A stretch of 64,000 nucleotides of DNA from Sedimentisphaerales bacterium (lineage in GTDB: Bacteria > Planctomycetota > Phycisphaerae > Sedimentisphaerales > SM23-30), in NCBI GenBank assembly GCA_963666285.1, contig OY762711.1; one strand, 5' to 3'. Position numbers and translations under genes: made by a program. Every line of letters begins with the position of its first letter. Positions within the stretch are counted from its first letter, which is position 1. Shown one piece after another: positions 47,279 to 56,332 of the stretch. The notes beneath the pieces are model-generated. The model was not told where the DNA came from. It ran no database searches and worked only from the letters and a program-made list of their open reading frames with translations.

Positions 47279-47452
47279 GAACCCATCCCAAAATCTTTTT
47301 TTGCATTGATTGGCTGCATTCACCCTGCCCTTCGTTGATCGGCAAAAAACAATCTCGACGTATAATAATACGCCTGCGATAGTTTTTGGCCTCCGCCTCG
47401 GCCATGAATAAATTCGCTCAATCCTGCATTAAAACATATTTTGGACGAGTTC
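47279..47452. repeat. Imperfect palindromic element (REP/MITE-like)
   Basis: GAACCCATCCCAAAAT...ATTTTGGACGAGTTC ends; inner arms GCAAAAAACAATC/GATAGTTTTTGGC; central GACGTAT-AATA-ATACGCC. Confidence 0.65.
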
Positions 47453-47831
47453 AAATAACTTACATCAGTCCCAATCGGGCAGCCTCAATTATTAACCCTT
47501 CCTGAAACTCCTATATGCCGGATCTCCTTACCCGGTGACAATTAATACCCAGATTCCGAATTTGTTAAAAAGTTCAAACTGACTCGTGGCCAGTTGAAAG
47601 TTATTTTTAAGTATTTGGTATCAGGCAAGGATAGCCGTAAAGCGGCAGGCCTGTTTAATATAAAAGATTGTCTTAAAATATATTACAACAATATAAAGAG
47701 ACTAATCAATCATACTAAATTAAGCAAATACCTTTCAAGCTGTGAAACTCAAGTTGCCTTAAACATCCACAAATTATCGTATCCGGTCGGGATGTTATTA
47801 TCAAGTAAAAATTGAAATTAGTTGGCAGGTA
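47362..47831. repeat. ~470-bp direct repeat, copy 1 (left of CRISPR-Cas)
   Basis: Matches 54287-54755 with about 3 substitutions and 1 indel seen by eye. Confidence 0.95.
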
Positions 47832-47977
47832 ACAGGAGAATAAAAATATTGACCAAGGTGGTTGTAAATTGGTAGAATACAACAAGTTAAAATTGAACAG
47901 GGATAAAGGATTGCCCGCTTCTTTGAAATCTGAGAAATAATTGTGGTTATAGGTAATTAATTAAATCCAACATTAAT

Positions 47978-48105
47978 AAAAAAAGCACCCTCAAAATGAA
48001 GGTGCAAGAGGTTGTTCCGTGGAACATTGCTCGCACATAACAGCGGAGCGCCTGCGTCTTTTTCAACTTATTGTGAAAAGTATACAGACTAGGATTAATT
48101 ACACT
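47978..48105 (-). ncRNA. tracrRNA
   Basis: 48070-48105 ATTGTGAAAAGTATACAGACTAGGATTAATTACACT aligns with the repeat; the minus-strand RNA gives anti-repeat, UAAG nexus start, hairpins and GCACCUUCAUUUUGAGGGUGC-U7 terminator. Confidence 0.9.
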
Positions 48106-48111
48106 ATAAGT

Positions 48112-48140
48112 AAAATACACCAATAATTTGAACGTGTCAA
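48112..48140 (-). promoter_or_regulatory. tracrRNA promoter
   Basis: TTGACA-N17-TATTTT ending 6 nt before the anti-repeat. Confidence 0.7.
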
Positions 48141-48159
48141 ATAGAAATTGGAGTTTAAT

Positions 48160-51100
48160 ATGGTGAAATATGTTTTAGGACTTGATTTAGGGCCAACATC
48201 TATTGGATGGGCAGCAATTGCTATTGATGAAAATGGCAATTTTTTAGGTTTTCTGAAAATTTCAGATTCTAAAGATGGTTTGCATTGGATTCCAGCTATT
48301 AATTCGAGAATATTTCCGATGCCATATGTAGAAAAAACTTATTGTGCTGGAAATAAAGAAACAACCAGAAATAAAAACAGAAGAGATGCTAGAGGGGCCA
48401 AAAGAAGATATCAAAGACGGTCTCAAAGGTTGAATGAAACTTATTGCTTTTTACATGAAAGAAATATTCTTCCAGAAAGAAATGAATATGAGAAATTACT
48501 TTCTTTGGATCCTTTTGAAATAAGAGCAAAGGCTTTAGAGGAAAGAATAGATTTACATCATGTAGGAAGAGCAATAATGCATATAGCAAAAAGGAGGGGT
48601 TTTAAGTCAAATAGTAAATTAGGTGGATTGATAGACGTTGATACAGACAATAAGAGAAAGAAAAAAGATAAATCCAAGATAACTCTTTTAAATACATACG
48701 AAGGAAAAACAATTGGGCAAATATGTTATGAGAAACATAAGGATGATATCTGTACTGCTGTAAGGAATAAAGGTGAAATGAATATATGGCAAAGGAAAGA
48801 CTATATTGATGAAGTATGTCGTATATGGAAATGTCAACAACAGTATTATCCAACAATTCTTACGGACGATGTATTAGAGGATTTAGTATCAGAAGATGGA
48901 AGTAAATGGTTATTATTCAGTCAGCATAGTTATAAATTGTCAGCAAGAAAGCAAAGGAAGTATATTGGAAAATGTTCACTATGGAAAGAAAAGCTAAGAT
49001 GTGATAAAAGTAAGAGAGTTGCACAAGAATTTGTGCTTCTTCAAACAATTAACTACTTAGAAATATATGATTCTTACGGTTCAAAAATTGAATGCGGCGT
49101 TTCAAAAGAAGATAAGCAAAAAATATTAGAATATATATCTTCCTTTGAGAAAGGCAAAAAGTATTCACAAATTAAAAAACATTTAGGATATCCAGAAGAT
49201 TGGAGATTTAATTTTGAGGATGTAGAAGAAGATAATAGTTTGCCAGGAATTGCAGTAGATGATCTGATAAGAGTTATATTTGGCGAAAGGAAGGGCAATA
49301 AGTATGTGCAGATTGTTGATTATAGTGATAGAGAAGCTGTTTGGGAAATTGTGCTTTTATATATTGATGAAGAGATATCATACAATGAATTACGAAAGCA
49401 AATGGTTAAATTTGATGTTGAGGTTCCAGACGAAGATATATTGAATGCTAAACTAAGTAAAGCAAAAGTACCTGATGGACATGTCAAGTATTGTGAAGAA
49501 ATAGTTAAAATTCTTAATGCCGAAATGCTAAAGGGTATAAACTTGCATGAAGCAAAACAGAGAGTTTGCAAACGTTTAGGGCTAAAAAATAATAGCAGAG
49601 TATTGTCCAAATTACCAATACCTGATAGGGCACATGGTTTTGAAACTACTAATCCAAATGTCAAAGTGGTTTTACATGAAGTTAGAAAGATAGTAAATCA
49701 ATTAATAAAAGAGTTTGGCAAACCAGAGAGGATTATGATTGAGTGCGGAAGGTCGATTAAAGCAAATAAAAAACAAAGAGAGGTAATAAAGAAAAAACAA
49801 AAGGATAATAATACATTGAAAAAAAGTGTTAGGGAGATATTTGATGTAAATGATCAAATACCAGCTTTTATTAAATGTAATAAGCCAGGATGGGCAATTA
49901 AAAGATATATATTATGGCAACAGCAAAAAGGTATGTGTCCGTACTTAGATTCCAGTAAAAAACAAATTCCATTATCAAAACTATTTAGTTCAGAAGTGGA
50001 AATAGACCATATTATTCCTCGTGAAATATCATTTGATAATTCATTAAATAACCAGGTAGTATGTTATACGAATGAAAACAGAAATAAGGGACTTAACACA
50101 CCTATTAGCTGGTTAAAGGAAACAAATCCGGAAAAGTGGGTAAATACACAGAATGCGATAAAGCATTGGAAAGAACTGACTAAGCGGGAAAAAATTACTA
50201 TTGATGGTGAAGAAATTACGTTGGAGCCAAATAGGAATAAATGGGAACGTTTTTTTGTAAATAATAAAGATGTGCACAATAAATACAGCCCTAAAAATCT
50301 CCTGAATGACAATTCATACATTGCAAATGAAGTAAAAAAGTATTTACTGAGATTATATCCTTCTGAAAATCAACAGGGTAGACAAAATGTTGACACAACA
50401 AAAGGTATGATCACCAGTGAGCTAAGAAAAATATGGGGAGTTAATAGTATATTGCGTAAAGATGATATTGATCAAAAGAATAGAGGTGACCATAGGCATC
50501 ATGCAATAGATGCAGCTATTTGTGCTGTTACTACTCATTCTGAAATTCAAAAAATAACGCGAGAGTTGCAACAAGCGTTTCCTGAAACGGATTATGGGAA
50601 AATAAAAATTAGTAAACCTTGGTCTGGTTTTGAAAGAGATTTAAAAGAAGTGATTGATTCTATAAATGTTTCGCATCGGCCAAGACGGCAAGTTCGAGGA
50701 TCATTGCACGGAGATAGCTTTTGGGCAAAAGATTCAAATGGAAAATTTGTGCAAAGAAAAAAAGTGAAAGATGCTAATGTGAGTACTGTTTGTGATGAAA
50801 AGGTTAGAGATCTTATAAAGAAATGGAAGGAATCTAATCAAAGTGAATATCCTATGCTGCCAAATAATAATCATAATGTAAATAATGGAGAACCAATTCC
50901 AGTTAAGAAAGTTAAATGTTATTCTGGGAAAAATGAAAATCAATTTATTGAAATCAGGCCAGGAAAGTATGTTGAAAAGCCTGAAAATCATCATGTCGAG
51001 TTATTTGAACTTGAAGAAAATGGATCAACTCAAATAATTGCAAAAATATGGAATACTTATGAAGTATCAAAAAGAATAGCGAATGCAAACCGCAAGTATA

Positions 51101-51435
51101 ATAAACTTGCTAAGAGTGGGGAAAAGTTAAATATGACTAACTGTATAGTTATCCGTGAGCATCCAGAATATTCAGAAGCAACATTTAAGTTTTCATTTTC
51201 AAAAGGGGATATTATTCAAATGGATAGTAAAAAAGGAGGAAGGGCTTATTATAGAGCCGTTAGTATTGGCGAAAATGATTATTGGTTTTGGGAATTGCAT
51301 ATTGCATCAAATGAAAAACCTAAAGCAGATGATTTAGATGGGCATAGGCTGAGAAGCCCCAATAAATTCTTAGAATTGAATGCTAAAAAGGTTACGGTTG
51401 CCCCATTGGGTCGTGTACGGTGGGCAAATGATTAA
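48160..51435 (+). CDS. cas9: Type II-C Cas9 (about 1091 aa)
   Basis: RuvC-I GLDLG, Arg-rich bridge helix, HIAKRRGF, RuvC-II IMIECGR, HNH EIDHIIP..N..NRNK, RuvC-III HHAIDA. Confidence 0.96.
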   Translation: MVKYVLGLDLGPTSIGWAAIAIDENGNFLGFLKISDSKDGLHWIPAINSRIFPMPYVEKTYCAGNKETTRNKNRRDARGAKRRYQRRSQRLNETYCFLHERNILPERNEYEKLLSLDPFEIRAKALEERIDLHHVGRAIMHIAKRRGFKSNSKLGGLIDVDTDNKRKKKDKSKITLLNTYEGKTIGQICYEKHKDDICTAVRNKGEMNIWQRKDYIDEVCRIWKCQQQYYPTILTDDVLEDLVSEDGSKWLLFSQHSYKLSARKQRKYIGKCSLWKEKLRCDKSKRVAQEFVLLQTINYLEIYDSYGSKIECGVSKEDKQKILEYISSFEKGKKYSQIKKHLGYPEDWRFNFEDVEEDNSLPGIAVDDLIRVIFGERKGNKYVQIVDYSDREAVWEIVLLYIDEEISYNELRKQMVKFDVEVPDEDILNAKLSKAKVPDGHVKYCEEIVKILNAEMLKGINLHEAKQRVCKRLGLKNNSRVLSKLPIPDRAHGFETTNPNVKVVLHEVRKIVNQLIKEFGKPERIMIECGRSIKANKKQREVIKKKQKDNNTLKKSVREIFDVNDQIPAFIKCNKPGWAIKRYILWQQQKGMCPYLDSSKKQIPLSKLFSSEVEIDHIIPREISFDNSLNNQVVCYTNENRNKGLNTPISWLKETNPEKWVNTQNAIKHWKELTKREKITIDGEEITLEPNRNKWERFFVNNKDVHNKYSPKNLLNDNSYIANEVKKYLLRLYPSENQQGRQNVDTTKGMITSELRKIWGVNSILRKDDIDQKNRGDHRHHAIDAAICAVTTHSEIQKITRELQQAFPETDYGKIKISKPWSGFERDLKEVIDSINVSHRPRRQVRGSLHGDSFWAKDSNGKFVQRKKVKDANVSTVCDEKVRDLIKKWKESNQSEYPMLPNNNHNVNNGEPIPVKKVKCYSGKNENQFIEIRPGKYVEKPENHHVELFELEENGSTQIIAKIWNTYEVSKRIANANRKYNKLAKSGEKLNMTNCIVIREHPEYSEATFKFSFSKGDIIQMDSKKGGRAYYRAVSIGENDYWFWELHIASNEKPKADDLDGHRLRSPNKFLELNAKKVTVAPLGRVRWAND

Positions 51436-52330
51436 GCGGATAATCGAGGTTTCTCAGGCGAAGACATATTTATCGGTTAAAAATAGCCAATTGTTAATAC
51501 GCCGAGATGATGAGCAGATAGGTCAGATACCATGCGAAGATATAGGTATGCTGATAGTAGATCATCCTGGTGTGATATATACACACTGCGTGTTTACTGA
51601 ACTGGTTAAAGCAGGTGCTGCGGTTGTGCTGTGCGGAGCAGACCATCATCCGGCGGGAGTGTTTATGCCGGTAGAGTCTAACAGCGTGCAGACCGAGCGT
51701 ATGCGTGGGCAGCTGCTGGCGAAAGAGCCTATAAAGAAGCAGATGTGGAAGCAACTGGTGCAGTCAAAGATCCGGCATCAGGCAGAAGTGCTGGGTAAAG
51801 ATTGTCGTGCGTATGAGGGATTGCAGGAGATGGCAAATGCGGTGAAGAGCGGTGACCCGGAGAATAAGGAAGCGCAGGCGAGTAAACTGTACTGGAAATA
51901 TTTTGGTGATGAAATGGAGTTCAAAAGGCATCGGTACGGTAAGAGTCCTAACAATATGCTGAATTATGGATATGCAATTGTTCGTGCGGCTGTTGCCAGG
52001 GCAATCGTAGCGGCTGGTTTGAACCCATCAATTGGTGTGCATCACTGCAACAAGTATAATGCATTTTGCCTGGCGGATGATTTGCTGGAGGCCTTCAGGG
52101 GATTTGTGGATAGAAGGGTTCTTGAAATATGGTCGGAATTGTCTGGGGGTGAAGGCGAAGTTGAATTGGATCAGGAGATAAAGGCAAAGCTGCTTGAAAT
52201 ATTATATGATGAAGTAGAGCTGGGGCAGTATTCCGGACCGATGATGGTTGGTATGCACAGAATGGCGGCATCAGTAGTGAAGTGTTTTGCCGGGGAAAGT
52301 AAAAATCTGGATTTGCCGAAAATCTGTTAA
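51428..52330 (+). CDS. cas1: CRISPR integrase Cas1 (type II)
   Basis: IPCEDIG, EAQASKLYW, NNMLNYGYAIVR, GVHH, NAFCLADDLLEAFR; ATG overlaps the cas9 end. Confidence 0.96.
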   Translation: MIKRIIEVSQAKTYLSVKNSQLLIRRDDEQIGQIPCEDIGMLIVDHPGVIYTHCVFTELVKAGAAVVLCGADHHPAGVFMPVESNSVQTERMRGQLLAKEPIKKQMWKQLVQSKIRHQAEVLGKDCRAYEGLQEMANAVKSGDPENKEAQASKLYWKYFGDEMEFKRHRYGKSPNNMLNYGYAIVRAAVARAIVAAGLNPSIGVHHCNKYNAFCLADDLLEAFRGFVDRRVLEIWSELSGGEGEVELDQEIKAKLLEILYDEVELGQYSGPMMVGMHRMAASVVKCFAGESKNLDLPKIC

Positions 52331-52398
52331 AGGCAGGTTTGTTAAAAGACGAAAAATAAGAAGATGAGTGAAATTTTTATTTTTTCTGAGTGACAATA

Positions 52399-52728
52399 AT
52401 GGATATCAGCGGGTATAGAGTAGTGTGGATACTGGCAATGTTTGACCTGCCGACCGATACGAAGCAGGCAATAAAAGATTATACGCAATTTCGTAAAAGT
52501 CTTTTAAAAGACGGGTTTTCTATGATACAATATTCTGTATATATCAGACATTGTGCCAGTGAGGAAAACGCAGATGTTCATTTTGAACGAGTTAAAAAAT
52601 TTTTGCCTCCGGATGGCGAAGTGCGGCTGCTTTGTATTACCGATAAGCAGTATGGTCGCATGGAAACCTATTGGGGGCGGCGTAGAAAACCGACGCCTCC
52701 GGCACCAAAACAGCTCGAACTTTTCTGA
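52399..52728 (+). CDS. cas2: Cas2
   Basis: WILAMFDLPT, FRKSLLKDGFSMIQYSVY, ITDKQY, QLELF. Confidence 0.96.
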   Translation: MDISGYRVVWILAMFDLPTDTKQAIKDYTQFRKSLLKDGFSMIQYSVYIRHCASEENADVHFERVKKFLPPDGEVRLLCITDKQYGRMETYWGRRRKPTPPAPKQLELF

Positions 52729-52784
52729 TTTTTTTGCCGAATCTTTTTGTAAGTCTGTGTTTGACAGTAGGTTGGAAAATATGT

Positions 52785-54205
52785 AGTGTAATCAATCCTA
52801 GCCTGTTGTCAATCCACAACTTGACAGATCTTTGCTGCTGGTGATGGGGTAGTGTAATCAATCCTAGCCTGTTGTCAATCCACAACAGGTGTCTGCGTTT
52901 AGCTGGTCGATCTTGTAGTGTAATCAATCCTAGCCTGTTGTCAATCCACAACAGCTCAAGCCTTGTAAGTTTGCTAGTTCTTAGTGTAATCAATCCTAGC
53001 CTGTTGTCAATCCACAACTAATATGAGTGCTTATGCAATTCTGTCAAAGTGTAATCAATCCTAGCCTGTTGTCAATCCACAACAATTTATTTTCACTCCA
53101 CTTATCGTCCCAGAGTGTAATCAATCCTAGCCTGTTGTCAATCCACAACATAAGCAGATAATGGATGAGCGTTGGGAGTAGTGTAATCAATCCTAGCCTG
53201 TTGTCAATCCACAACATCTTATTGTTTCTCCTGGTCCGGCTTTTCAGTGTAATCAATCCTAGCCTGTTGTCAATCCACAACACAACTTTATAATTGTTGT
53301 AAGTGCAGCCCAGTGTAATCAATCCTAGCCTGTTGTCAATCCACAACCTCTTGTCTGAACTATCTCATCAATGGAAAAGTGTAATCAATCCTAGCCTGTT
53401 GTCAATCCACAACACATTCCTTCAGGGGAAGCGATTCAAATAAAGTGTAATCAATCCTAGCCTGTTGTCAATCCACAACCCCGCCCTGGTTAATGTATTT
53501 GCTCGGGCAAGTGTAATCAATCCTAGCCTGTTGTCAATCCACAACCATTTCCCTTATCTACTAAAACAGTACTGAAGTGTAATCAATCCTAGCCTGTTGT
53601 CAATCCACAACTGGATGTCTTCAACTCATGTCGGATTCTGGAGTGTAATCAATCCTAGCCTGTTGTCAATCCACAACGGTGTTTCAGAGTTCTTTAATCG
53701 TTAATCGAGTGTAATCAATCCTAGCCTGTTGTCAATCCACAACTTTATCATGGCAGTATGTTCGTTTTGATTAAGTGTAATCAATCCTAGCCTGTTGTCA
53801 ATCCACAACAAGTTTCGGGTCGGAGTTATTCACTCTTTTAGTGTAATCAATCCTAGCCTGTTGTCAATCCACAACCAAGGGCAAAGTAAGATGTGGCGAG
53901 CGTTCAGTGTAATCAATCCTAGCCTGTTGTCAATCCACAACGTCGGTGTCGGTAAAACTTATGCCCGTTGTAGTGTAATCAATCCTAGCCTGTTGTCAAT
54001 CCACAACATCGCCTTGCCGGGTTATGTCTACCTATCAAGTGTAATCAATCCTAGCCTGTTGTCAATCCACAACCACGCTCACTGCCGCGAACAGCTGTTT
54101 GGAGTGTAATCAATCCTAGCCTGTTGTCAATCCACAACTATCCTTGACTTGAACGGTAATACAGTTGGAGTGTAATCAATCCTAGCCTGTTGTCAATCCA
54201 CTGAC
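52785..54205 (-). CRISPR. CRISPR array: 22 repeats of 36 bp (last one degenerate), 21 spacers of 29-30 bp
   Basis: Repeat GTTGTGGATTGACAACAGGCTAGGATTGATTACACT on the minus strand; orientation set by tracrRNA complementarity; no csn2 or cas4, so type II-C. Confidence 0.98.
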
Positions 54206-54286
54206 TGCAGCGATTGGTTTCGAGTATAGAGCGGCCAGCAATAAGCAGAGAGCTGGAGTAAAATCAGTTTGTGTTTGTAATGAAAA

Positions 54287-54755
54287 ATAATAATACGCCT
54301 GCGATAGTTTTTGGCCTCCGCCTCGGCCATGAATAAATTCGCTCAATCCTGCATTAAAACATATTTTGGACGAGTTCAAATAACTTACATCAGTCCCAAT
54401 CGGGCAGCCTCAATTATTAACCCTTCCTGAAACTCCTATATGCCGGATCTCCTTACCCGGTGACAATTAATACCCAGATTCCGAATTTGTAAAAAGCTCA
54501 AACTGACTCGTGGCCAGTTGAAAGTTATTTTTAAGTATTTGGTATCGGGCAAGGATAGCCGCAAAGCGGCAGGCCTGTTTAATATAAAAGATTGTCTTAA
54601 AATATATTACAACAATATAAAGAGACTAATCAATCATACTAAATTAAGCAAATACCTTTCAAGCTGTGAAACTCAAGTTGCCTTAAACATCCACAAATTA
54701 TCGTATCCGGTCGGGATGTTATTATCAAGTAAAAATTGAAATTAGTTGGCAGGTA
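54287..54755. repeat. ~470-bp direct repeat, copy 2 (right of array)
   Basis: Near-identical to 47362-47831. Confidence 0.95.
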
Positions 54756-54803
54756 GAAAATGGTTCTCCAGAAGACTCTAAAAAGAGGTGAAGGAGAACC
54801 AAA

Positions 54804-55177
54804 ATGAAAGACAGGCAAACCCAAAACCATGTTAAATGGGAATGAAAGTATCATGTGTTAATAGTACCAAAATATCGTAAGAAGATAGGCGAGATAATTC
54901 GAGAATTATGTCGCCAAAAGGATATCGAATTATTAGAAGGCAATGCAGGTGTGGATCATATTCATATGTTGCATAGTATTCCACCTGGGTACAGTATTGC
55001 CATGACAATGGGATCTTTGAAGGGCAAAAGTGCTATTCGCATAAACAGGAAGCTTGTCTGTTTGGTAGAAGCTTTTGATCCCTAGGATATTGTGTAAGAA
55101 CGGTTGGTCTTGATGAGGATATAATACGAAAATATATCCAGGATCAGGAACAGCAAGAACGTGATGAAGATAAATAG
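54804..55177 (+). pseudogene. tnpA: IS200/IS605-family TnpA (Y1 transposase) pseudogene
   Basis: HVKWE*KYHVLIVPKYRKK, DHIHML (HUH motif), KGKSAI, then a frameshifted GYCVRTVGLDEDIIRKYIQDQE. Confidence 0.88.
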
Positions 55178-55190
55178 AGGTATCCAAATT

Positions 55191-55868
55191 CTAGGGTTCT
55201 TCCTCGGACCTCCTGCTATGCAGAAGGCGTGGTTGATTTGTCTTTGAAATAGGCTCTATTATCTCATCAGGAAATTCATGAATCGCTTTATTAAGCAGAT
55301 TATCTAATTTTTCTTCAAGGGCTCTTGGAAGTAAAAAAAATGTTTCACGTTTTTGCTCAAACGTAACAAAAGAGTACCTGTTAAGATATTTATCCATATT
55401 ATCGTTATGTTTGTATTCAACAAATAGCAAAACATTGGTATTTGTTGAATAAATATACACATCTTCAACTACGGGTTTTATGATGATTATTCCCATTTTG
55501 GAATCATATTCTCCATGTATAGTCCGTGCAAGTACTGGAATATTAGGATCGAATTCCTCATCCTTATTTTTATCGAATTCAATTATTTCATTTCCCATAA
55601 AAATGGTACTGCCTTTAGGTGGACAAATATGTTCGAAGTTACTTAAATTAGTATTGTTAGTAGATGTATAAAATACATCCACTATACCTTCATGAAAAAG
55701 TTTCCCTTCAAAACCAAATTGATTTAAGATACTGTCAACTTCTTCTTTGGGTAATCCATTTTTCAGCAGCAAATTATTATCATAAAATAAATGAGATTCA
55801 GTAGTATTTTCAGAAATACAACCTGAAAAGAAAATTAGAAACAATAAATATATTATCAAATTCTTCAT
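55191..55868 (-). CDS. Hypothetical lipoprotein
   Basis: MKNLIIYLLFLIFFSGC lipobox; AT-rich. Confidence 0.8.
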   Translation of the reverse strand: MKNLIIYLLFLIFFSGCISENTTESHLFYDNNLLLKNGLPKEEVDSILNQFGFEGKLFHEGIVDVFYTSTNNTNLSNFEHICPPKGSTIFMGNEIIEFDKNKDEEFDPNIPVLARTIHGEYDSKMGIIIIKPVVEDVYIYSTNTNVLLFVEYKHNDNMDKYLNRYSFVTFEQKRETFFLLPRALEEKLDNLLNKAIHEFPDEIIEPISKTNQPRLLHSRRSEEEP

Positions 55869-55879
55869 AAGTATATATA

Positions 55880-55916
55880 AGTGTAATCAATCCCAGCCTG
55901 TTGTCAATCCACGAAC
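55880..55916 (-). CRISPR. Orphan degenerate CRISPR repeat
   Basis: AGTGTAATCAATCCCAGCCTGTTGTCAATCCACGAAC: one substitution and one insertion versus the consensus; flank resembles the array flank at 54205-54250. Confidence 0.92.
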
Positions 55917-56332
55917 AGCAGTGATCGGCTTTGAGTATTGAGATGCCAGGAATAAATAAGCAAGGAGCAGTGGTGAAATCATATTATAACTATCACAGGG
56001 GTAAATGAGGCATAATTATATAGATTGTGATTAGCTATCGGACCATTATGGTATGAAGTTTATTGCCAGAAAGCATATATAATTGATAATAGCATATAAA
56101 ATATTGATCGTGTGAAATGGAAATATGGATTGTGGAAAAATATTTTTTTGTAAGTTGTTGTTAGTAATAGTCTTACTGGCAAGTTGTGTTGTTTGTCGTA
56201 ATGTTGATGATAAATCGCAAATCTGGCAAAAAAATGAGATTATTAATGAAAAAGTGTATATGTTTTTGGTACGATAATAGTACTTGAATCAAAGCAGTCA
56301 TGAATATACAAAGTAAAGGTGTGAAACTAGAG

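What the first reader, a model, noticed from the sequence alone, without database searches (positions are those of the whole stretch)
55191..55965. Orphan CRISPR repeat 11 nt upstream of a lipoprotein start codon: a gene in the position of a spacer
Seen: on the minus strand the sequence reads ...GTGGA-TTGACA-ACAGGCTGGGATTGAT-TACACT-tatatatactt-ATG(KNLIIYLLFLIFFSGC). The promoter boxes are intact, there is no Shine-Dalgarno, and the flank beyond the repeat resembles the flank of the array's terminal repeat. Established: Francisella Cas9 with tracrRNA and a degenerate-repeat scaRNA represses lipoprotein genes. Inference: (a) the repeat is reused as a promoter for a nearly leaderless lipoprotein mRNA; (b) a read-through transcript carrying the repeat is bound by tracrRNA/Cas9 and cut by RNase III; or (c) it yields a scaRNA-like short guide. 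Any of these would tie Cas9 to control of an envelope gene.
Basis: partly seen in the sequence, partly recalled or inferred. Interest (0 to 1): 0.8.

Follow-up and report, generated by a model that had tools for sequence, protein, structure and literature searches.

The report
Stranded CRISPR repeat reused as promoter
A leftover copy of the end of a Cas9 CRISPR array sits right in front of a bacterial surface-protein gene and probably supplies its promoter, with no sign that Cas9 controls the gene; similar lone repeats stand in front of ordinary genes in several related bacteria.

Summary
The orphan (55880-55915, minus strand) is a copy of the array's oldest (trailer) repeat plus about 66 nt of its flank. 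It is therefore not a gene captured as a spacer. Every repeat of this type II-C array carries the same TTGACA-16-TACACT promoter, so intact boxes alone show little.

The lipoprotein gene is real. Its three paralogs in the genome have a Shine-Dalgarno-like motif and no repeat; one follows an RHS-core gene, which suggests an immunity family. An IS200 remnant and a 470-bp duplication around the cas module mark rearrangement.

Cas9-linked readings found no support: the best guide matches beside the inferred PAM were 9-10 nt (chance level), and the tracrRNA lower stem is weakened.

New here: in the host's order, 9 of 18 lone repeats point at a gene start within 100 nt and 0 of 18 on the other side. 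In two genomes a repeat replaces a host gene's native upstream region. Other orders did not replicate this (1 of 7 against 1 of 7).

Best reading: Cas9-independent promoter capture (0.5), against inert remnant (0.35). An earlier scan note (e1-4881644) proposed a similar loan of a promoter on other DNA.

The parts
55880..55915 (-). Orphan repeat R': copy of the trailer (extra) repeat, degenerate at its first 3 nt, with one private A>G change; carries TTGACA (55907-55902) and TACACT (55885-55880)
55916..55981 (-). Flank F', homologous to the flank F of the array's trailer repeat (with the 3 degenerate repeat positions: 48 of 65 aligned positions identical, one 4-nt indel)
55869..55879 (-). 11 nt between repeat and ATG; no SD-like motif; predicted transcription start at A55874 (inferred from N. 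meningitidis), giving a 6-nt leader
55191..55868 (-). 225-aa lipoprotein ORF (29% GC). Residues 1-210 are colinear with the family; about the last 15 codons and the stop are IS-derived. Probable orphan immunity-type protein (inferred)
54756..55238 (+). IS200 (Y1 transposase) remnant: premature stop and deletions, left end missing, right end inside the 3' end of the lipoprotein gene
54287..54755 (.). Right copy of a 470-bp direct repeat (99%); cuts off the left end of the IS; contains a dispersed ~150-bp repeat
47362..47831 (.). Left copy of the 470-bp direct repeat; the two copies bracket tracrRNA, cas9, cas1, cas2 and the array
54205..54266 (-). Flank F of the array's trailer repeat
54169..54204 (-). 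Trailer (oldest, extra) repeat R, degenerate at its first 3 nt
52785..54204 (-). Type II-C CRISPR array: 22 repeats, 21 spacers of 29-30 nt, each repeat with a -35/-10 pair
47978..48105 (-). Predicted tracrRNA: anti-repeat 48070-48105, hairpins, terminator with T run (fold z -3.25); fixes the array's orientation
48148..52728 (+). cas9 (48148/48160-51435), cas1 (51380-52330), cas2 (52390-52728)

Best explanation
R'+F' is the stranded trailer end of a type II-C array. An older or second CRISPR locus at this site lost what lay 3' of its first repeat, and the repeat became joined 11 nt before an AT-rich lipoprotein gene, in place of that gene's own promoter and SD. II-C repeats are sigma-70 promoters whose job is to transcribe the spacer that follows, so R' now fires into the gene. 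It would make an mRNA with a leader of about 6 nt that lacks the repeat and is translated without an SD. Cas9 and tracrRNA play no part. SHOWN: anatomy, trailer origin, a real gene, paralogs without repeat, recurrence of lone repeats before genes in the order. INFERRED: transcription from R', the start site, translation, selection, the order of rearrangements and the immunity function.
For: Promoter boxes identical to the array's; II-C repeats are promoters, start at the 6th nt (PMC12477760; PMC12080349), and that base is A. 3 of 3 in-genome paralogs have an SD-like motif 4-11 nt before ATG and no repeat. The ORF is unbroken to the family's last helix, while paralog C1:4690512 is truncated and the adjacent IS has frame-breaking lesions (chance of no break at that rate 0.056). 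R' differs from the consensus at 1 of 33 positions while F/F' differ at about a quarter (P 0.001-0.003). SD-less starts are common here: 24 of 74 lipoprotein-like starts. In the order, strict tally: 9 of 18 lone repeats have a same-strand gene start within 100 nt 3', 0 of 18 on the 5' side (p 0.004), against 10 of 46 for the 5' side of intact trailers (p 0.036). In genus g42 the glucuronoyl-esterase gene has a repeat 26-27 nt before ATG, SD kept, in 2 of 18 genomes examined; 10 others show a different, shared repeat-free region between the same tRNA-Ser and the gene. Distances like ours occur: 11 nt (L158) and 7 nt without SD (L226).
Against: No close relative holds this locus, so conservation of this junction is untested. 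Intact boxes are expected by chance (0.64). The low divergence of R' is equally explained by recent release from a working array or by gene conversion. The asymmetry did not replicate in other orders (strict 1 of 7 against 1 of 7; by a looser rule counted by eye, 8 against 9 of 17). 3' starts are not significantly more common than 3' gene ends (9 against 5, p 0.42), so deletion geometry may explain part of it. Intact -10 boxes are not significantly enriched (9 of 10 against 8 of 15, p 0.09). The strict cut-offs were chosen after seeing the data, and related genomes are not independent. A 6-nt SD-less leader may translate poorly, and the IS has altered the C-terminus.
Confidence: 0.5

Rival explanations
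1. Inert remnant. R'+F' is a scar of CRISPR loss or duplication that landed next to the gene by chance. It may fire, but the SD-less, IS-tailed gene yields little protein and nothing is selected. At most the scar marks a site where a CRISPR locus was regained.
For: Several rearrangement junctions lie within 2 kb. Detached repeats occur beyond the trailer in 2 of 46 related loci, neither with a gene start close by. 9 of 18 lone repeats in the order have no start within 100 nt. Shmakov et al. judge most type II single repeat units spurious and describe remnants as recapture targets (PMC10120712).
Against: Unbroken ORF beside a decayed IS; start-side asymmetry in the order and the g42 promoter replacement; geometry compatible with a purine start 6 nt before ATG.
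Confidence: 0.35
2. Read-through control. A promoter upstream of F' makes a longer isoform that contains R'; tracrRNA pairs with it and RNase III, with or without Cas9, cuts about 25 nt before the ATG and alters lipoprotein output.
For: The predicted tracr duplex remains strong (-38.7 against -41.4 kcal/mol), and the private A>G keeps a G-U pair. A weak 9/12 promoter site lies at 56005-55978. Host RNAs can pair with tracrRNA in C. jejuni (PMC8224270).
Against: The repeat's own 10/12 promoter starts downstream of the pairing region. The upstream site is at chance level (15 sites expected in shuffles). The lower stem that Cas9 needs is weakened (-5.5 against -7.9). Most lone repeats before genes had no cas gene in the fetched DNA.
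Confidence: 0.08
3. scaRNA-like guide. F'+R' yields a short RNA that guides Cas9 to repress a chromosomal promoter.
For: Position and sense match predicted scaRNAs, upstream of the array in crRNA sense (PMC6199352). A meningococcal II-C scaRNA exists (PMC13431127).
Against: The longest 3'-anchored match beside the inferred N4CC PAM is 9-10 nt in all 4 registers, and shuffled guides have mode 9. Without PAM it is 11-12 nt, with control mode 11. No match with at most 3 mismatches in 12 nt beside a PAM in the cas9, tracr or lipoprotein promoter regions. No fold signal (z +1.15); no minus-strand terminator-like site after R' before 54519. The seed differs between F and F'.
Confidence: 0.05
4. The gene was integrated as a giant spacer by Cas1-Cas2.
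For: The segment lies between two repeats in the same orientation.
Against: About 66 nt of flank are duplicated with the repeat. The site is the trailer, whereas II-C arrays acquire at the other end (PMC12080349). The 1675-bp segment is a mosaic.
Confidence: 0.02

Closest known systems
Extra (trailer) repeat of type II-C arrays (Feussner et al. 2025, PMC12080349; abstract and passages read)
   Same: Oldest repeat, mutated in its 5' part, weaker tracrRNA pairing, keeps its promoter to transcribe what follows.
   Different: Here a second copy is detached 1.7 kb from the array, and what follows is a protein-coding gene, not a spacer.
Single repeat units near CRISPR loci (Shmakov et al. 2023, PMC10120712; passages and section 25 read)
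   Same: Lone near-perfect repeat beside a cas locus; duplication of the terminal unit, or truncation and re-acquisition, as origin.
   Different: The passages read discuss RNA roles, spurious duplication and recapture, not promoter donation to host genes. Their supplementary lists were not checked.
scaRNA of Francisella novicida (II-B) and Neisseria meningitidis (II-C) (PMC13431127, abstract and Introduction; PMC6199352, passages)
   Same: Degenerate repeat in crRNA sense upstream of the array; a lipoprotein gene is involved.
   Different: scaRNA acts in trans on a distant target. Here the gene is in cis, directly downstream of the repeat, and no guide match exceeds chance.
Noncanonical crRNAs from host mRNAs in Campylobacter jejuni (Jiao et al. 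2021, PMC8224270; passages)
   Same: A read-through RNA carrying R' could pair with tracrRNA.
   Different: [quoted passage not shown]
Activation of neighbouring genes by outward-facing IS promoters (recalled, no call)
   Same: A mobile-element relic supplies -35/-10 boxes to an adjacent gene.
   Different: The donor is a CRISPR repeat left behind after locus loss.
Orphan immunity lipoproteins of RHS polymorphic toxin systems (general knowledge, recalled)
   Same: AT-rich, fast-evolving, scattered paralogs; one lies 28 nt after an RHS-core gene; weak BLIP/BamE-like fold matches.
   Different: No toxin gene precedes this copy, no family profile matches, and binding was not tested.

Membership tests
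Type II-C extra (trailer) repeat, detached copy | Mutations in the 5' part of the repeat that weaken tracrRNA pairing | tested here: met
   First 3 nt altered in both R and R'; lower stem -5.5 against -7.9 kcal/mol
Type II-C extra (trailer) repeat, detached copy | Flank is that of the non-leader end | tested here: met
   F' aligns to F at the cas2-distal end; orientation fixed by the tracr anti-repeat
Type II-C extra (trailer) repeat, detached copy | Embedded promoter is active | not testable with these tools
   Boxes present; activity needs RNA data
Single repeat unit (Shmakov et al.) | One near-identical repeat without a partner repeat at spacer distance | tested here: met
   Nearest repeat is 1676 nt away
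scaRNA | Repeat-like segment in crRNA sense next to the array | tested here: met
scaRNA | Own promoter upstream of the repeat and a terminator, giving a small RNA | tested here: inconclusive
   Only a 9/12 site at 56005-55978; no terminator-like site close after R'
scaRNA | Guide with partial (about 11-15 nt) match beside a PAM at a regulated promoter | tested here: not met
   9-10 nt at best with N4CC, chance level; PAM inferred from two imperfect protospacers
scaRNA | Cas9 binding and Cas9/tracrRNA-dependent repression | not testable with these tools
   Needs RIP-seq and mutants
Cas1-Cas2 spacer acquisition | Only the repeat is duplicated, at the leader end | tested here: not met
   Flank duplicated, trailer end
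Noncanonical crRNA | [quoted passage not shown] | tested here: inconclusive
   Upper stem intact, lower stem shortened; existence of such a transcript unknown
RHS polymorphic-toxin immunity protein | Gene directly downstream of an RHS-core toxin gene | tested here: inconclusive
   True for paralog P0002 (TIGR03696, E 2.4e-13); not for the other three copies in the genome
RHS polymorphic-toxin immunity protein | Known immunity fold or family | tested here: inconclusive
   Model pLDDT 50; Z 5.8-6.4 to BLIP-like, OsmE, BamE and a Bacteroides T6SS immunity protein, within background; no significant Pfam or NCBIfam hit
RHS polymorphic-toxin immunity protein | Binds and neutralises a toxin | not tested
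   No complex prediction was run

The most novel reading that the evidence does not exclude
Type II-C repeats act as portable promoters. When Cas9 loci decay, the stranded repeat repeatedly replaces the native promoter of the neighbouring gene and is kept for that job, including near-leaderless fusions such as this one and L226. This would be a DNA-level exaptation of CRISPR repeats that rewires host genes and outlasts the cas genes. A stronger version, in which tracrRNA or Cas9 tunes such genes where it is present, is not excluded but has about 0.1 probability.
Probability: 0.4. Interest if true: 0.7.

Novelty: new variant of a known kind. Interest (0 to 1): 0.45.

Why it matters
Known uses of stray CRISPR repeats are RNA roles (tracrRNA, scaRNA, regulatory mini-arrays, decoys). 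If lone II-C repeats serve as promoters for host genes, many single repeat units now written off as spurious would have a simple, testable DNA-level function, and gain and loss of Cas9 loci would be a route to new gene regulation. The g42 pair (repeat-driven against native upstream region on the same gene) makes this testable with reporter fusions. For this locus the practical message is negative: it is not good evidence for a Francisella-like Cas9 control of a lipoprotein.

Tried and rejected
Exact 18-nt repeat scans of genome, metagenome and viral contigs gave 11, 14 and 2 stretches, none an array (one or two matches each); not followed further.

Protein searches: only the protein itself, P0002 and P0003; Atlas hits under 0.8; Rfam found only a tRNA in the window. 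The single-sequence fold was unusable and Foldseek gave nothing at E 0.001.

No RNA holder listed.

No relative with the F' region among 24 family genomes. The left-hand neighbour gene has another context in three congeners, so there is no syntenic empty site.

F/F' as a structured RNA or flank-repeat hairpin: rejected (z -0.5 to +1.15). F/F' as a coding relic: mismatches fall at every third base by eye, but no homolog was found; left open.

The tracr anti-repeat as a cas9 promoter: rejected, because anti-repeats mostly lose the TTG of the -35 box.

A class-wide search for repeat+SD+ATG returned array spacers and was uninformative. Orthologs of the L226 gene were not found in 4 congeners. Orthologs of the L148 and L159 genes showed no obvious repeat by eye but were too distant to compare.

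A contig in run X3 joins 47638 to 54563; excision and assembly collapse cannot be told apart.

Literature searches for repeats reused as promoters of host genes found no such report in the open library; subscription papers and supplements were not seen.

Full report
1. THE OBSERVATION. The sequence is as described. On the minus strand a 36-nt repeat at 55880-55915 ends 11 nt before the ATG at 55868, with TTGACA, 16 nt and TACACT inside it. It belongs to a type II-C locus: cas9, cas1 and cas2, a 22-repeat array at 52785-54204, and a tracrRNA predicted on the minus strand upstream of cas9 (anti-repeat 48070-48105, fold z -3.25). The anti-repeat pairs with the minus-strand repeat, so the array and the orphan are read on the minus strand. 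A scan of the whole 6.35-Mb assembly at up to 10 mismatches found no other copy. A short-read contig covers 54726-57500 without a difference; it probably comes from the source sample.

2. WHAT THE ORPHAN IS. The orphan plus its 5' flank aligns with the cas2-distal repeat plus its flank over 102 nt at 78%, and both repeats are altered in their first three bases. In II-C systems this distal repeat is the oldest, 'extra' repeat. It is often mutated in its 5' part, must keep its promoter, and is not where spacers are added (PMC12080349, abstract and passages). The orphan is therefore a second trailer end. Cas1-Cas2 integration duplicates only the repeat, at the leader end (established knowledge), so the gene is not a captured spacer. 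The 1675 bp between the two repeats are a mosaic: flank F, a 99% copy of the 470 bp that lie left of the tracrRNA, an IS200 remnant whose left end is cut off by that copy, and the gene. The two 470-bp copies bracket the whole cas module. Two histories fit: loss of an older locus followed by re-entry of a cas module, or an old duplication of the trailer end followed by a recent templated patch. I cannot order them, because no relative holds the site. R' differs from the consensus at 1 of 33 positions outside the degenerate end, while the flanks differ at about a quarter (P 0.001-0.003). Selection, recent release from a working array, or gene conversion would each explain that.

3. THE GENE. It has no significant Pfam or NCBIfam match but is real. 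Two distant full-length homologs were found among 1.84 billion representatives, one of them in this genome, which holds three paralogs in all. One paralog starts 28 nt after an RHS-core gene (TIGR03696, E 2.4e-13); another lies among lipoprotein-like genes beside an apparent transposase and is truncated. A weak model (pLDDT 50) gives background-level matches to BLIP/BamE/OsmE-type folds and a T6SS immunity protein (Z 5.8-6.4). An orphan immunity-type lipoprotein is the likeliest identity (inference). The IS entered at or near the stop codon and adds about 15 residues. The ORF is otherwise unbroken, whereas the IS has a stop and deletions. At the IS's rate an intact ORF has probability 0.056, but a decayed IS could have been moved in later.

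4. TESTS OF THE CAS9 READINGS. Spacers 21 and 16 match a phage-like gene cluster in the chromosome imperfectly, and both sites are followed by NNNNCCA, which gives a provisional N4CC PAM. With it, the best 3'-anchored matches of the sequence before R' or R are 9-10 nt; shuffled guides have mode 9. Without a PAM they are 11-12 nt, with control mode 11. Nothing matches in the cas9, tracrRNA or lipoprotein promoter regions. The tracrRNA duplex is still strong overall (-38.7 against -41.4 kcal/mol), but the lower stem is shortened; pairing there is what Cas9 needs (PMC8224270, passages). A transcript from the repeat's own promoter begins downstream of the repeat, at the 6th nt in N. meningitidis (PMC12477760, passages), here A55874. 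Read-through would need an upstream promoter, and the only candidate scores 9/12 in AT-rich DNA. Options (b) and (c) are not excluded but have no positive support.

5. IS IT A PATTERN? Of 66 cas2 loci examined (this one included), 55 had an array, and 46 others had at least 2.5 kb beyond the trailer. Two of the 46 had a detached repeat, neither with a close start. A degenerate repeat pattern over 301 genomes of the order matched in 95, with one control hit. I fetched 28 genomes with one match per strand at most, and 5 more lone matches seen; singles hidden in other array-bearing genomes were not all retrieved. After dropping contig edges, cas-adjacent copies and mini-arrays, and matches more than 6 changes from a known array repeat, 18 remained. 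Nine have a same-strand ATG ORF of at least 80 codons within 100 nt on the 3' side and none has one on the 5' side; gene ends are even, 5 against 4 (p 0.004). Targets include a glucuronoyl esterase, a subtilase, a PPIase-domain protein, a histidine kinase and a YqaJ recombinase, several with an SD between repeat and ATG. Distances run from 11 to 82 nt; a 7-nt SD-less case (L226) and L142 fell just outside the strict cut.

The clearest case is genus g42. Of 18 genomes whose esterase upstream region I read, 2 have a repeat 26-27 nt before the ATG with the SD kept, and 10 have another shared, repeat-free region between the same tRNA-Ser and the gene. The two repeats differ at 5 positions, none in the boxes (p 0.11).

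Against the pattern: in other orders the strict count is 1 of 7 against 1 of 7; 3' starts do not significantly exceed 3' ends (p 0.42); -10 retention is not significant (p 0.09). The pattern itself resembles a promoter, which is why distant matches were removed. The cut-offs were set after viewing the data, and absence of cas genes was checked only in the fetched DNA.

6. MECHANISM. Most likely the repeat does for the gene what it does for a spacer: it recruits RNA polymerase and starts an RNA about 6 nt downstream. The junction removed the gene's own upstream signals, so any expression must come from R' or from read-through. Lack of an SD is not fatal in this genome: 24 of 74 lipoprotein-like starts and 231 of 496 unambiguous starts lack the motif. 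I put working promoter capture at 0.5, inert remnant at 0.35, read-through control at 0.08, scaRNA at 0.05 and giant spacer at 0.02.

7. RELATION TO KNOWN WORK. Repeat-embedded promoters, degenerate extra repeats and single repeat units are known. Shmakov et al. call most type II single units spurious and describe remnants as recapture targets (PMC10120712, passages and section 25). scaRNAs act in trans (PMC13431127, abstract and Introduction; PMC6199352, passages). A preprint on crRNA-like regulators has nothing on type II single repeats in the passages found (10.1101/2024.12.27.630466). Eight searches of the open library returned no report of lone II-C repeats serving as promoters of host genes. 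Subscription papers and supplementary tables, including Shmakov's locus lists, were not seen.

8. VERDICT. A real feature, a known kind of object in a possibly undescribed role. The Francisella-like Cas9 story is unsupported. The value lies in the wider, still unproven pattern of repeats standing in for promoters. Interest 0.45.

Noticed in passing
window 47362-47831 and 54287-54755: A 99% 470-bp direct repeat brackets the whole tracr-cas9-cas1-cas2-array module; one contig of run X3 joins across it (excision or assembly collapse).
   Followed up: partly
window 54490-54645 (and 47566-47720): A ~150-bp dispersed repeat with inverted ends and a small GC hairpin; 34 BLAST hits in the genome, MITE-like.
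   Followed up: partly
window 52821-52850 (spacer 21) and spacer 16; G000 C1:5309960-5309989 and 5283816-5283845: The newest spacer and spacer 16 match a resident phage-like region with several mismatches; both sites are followed by NNNNCCA, suggesting an N4CC PAM.
   Followed up: partly
L101 (G328:C17), about 990 nt beyond the trailer: A detached repeat, a partial repeat before it, and a small toxin-antitoxin-like pair between it and the array (weak HicB-like antitoxin hit).
   Followed up: partly
L233:6211-6534 (G632:C21): Two back-to-back lone repeats, each pointing at a secreted-protein gene with an SD (19 and 65 nt), beside dnaN-gyrB-like genes; L227 has a lone repeat right after a dnaN-like gene.
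   Followed up: partly
L226 (G456:C2:245801-245836): Lone repeat ending in TATAAT 7 nt before the ATG of a large secreted DUF6259 protein: a candidate leaderless gene.
   Followed up: partly
L230:8371 (G038:C102): Lone repeat 11 nt before a YqaJ recombinase gene in a phage-like gene run.
   Followed up: no
L066 (634 and 1045) and L089 (520-555), cas2-oriented coordinates: Two anti-repeats upstream of cas9 in L066; an extra sense repeat next to the tracrRNA in L089, a better scaRNA candidate than this finding.
   Followed up: no
G000 C1:4449180-4450175 (L131): A 331-codon open frame with a signal-peptide-like start, an RHS core and an unknown C-terminal domain, followed by paralog P0002 and near a resolvase.
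   Followed up: partly
window 54205-54245 and 55916-55955: Differences between F and F' fall largely at every third base and are synonymous in one frame on either strand (read by eye), as if F were a coding relic; no homolog found.
   Followed up: partly
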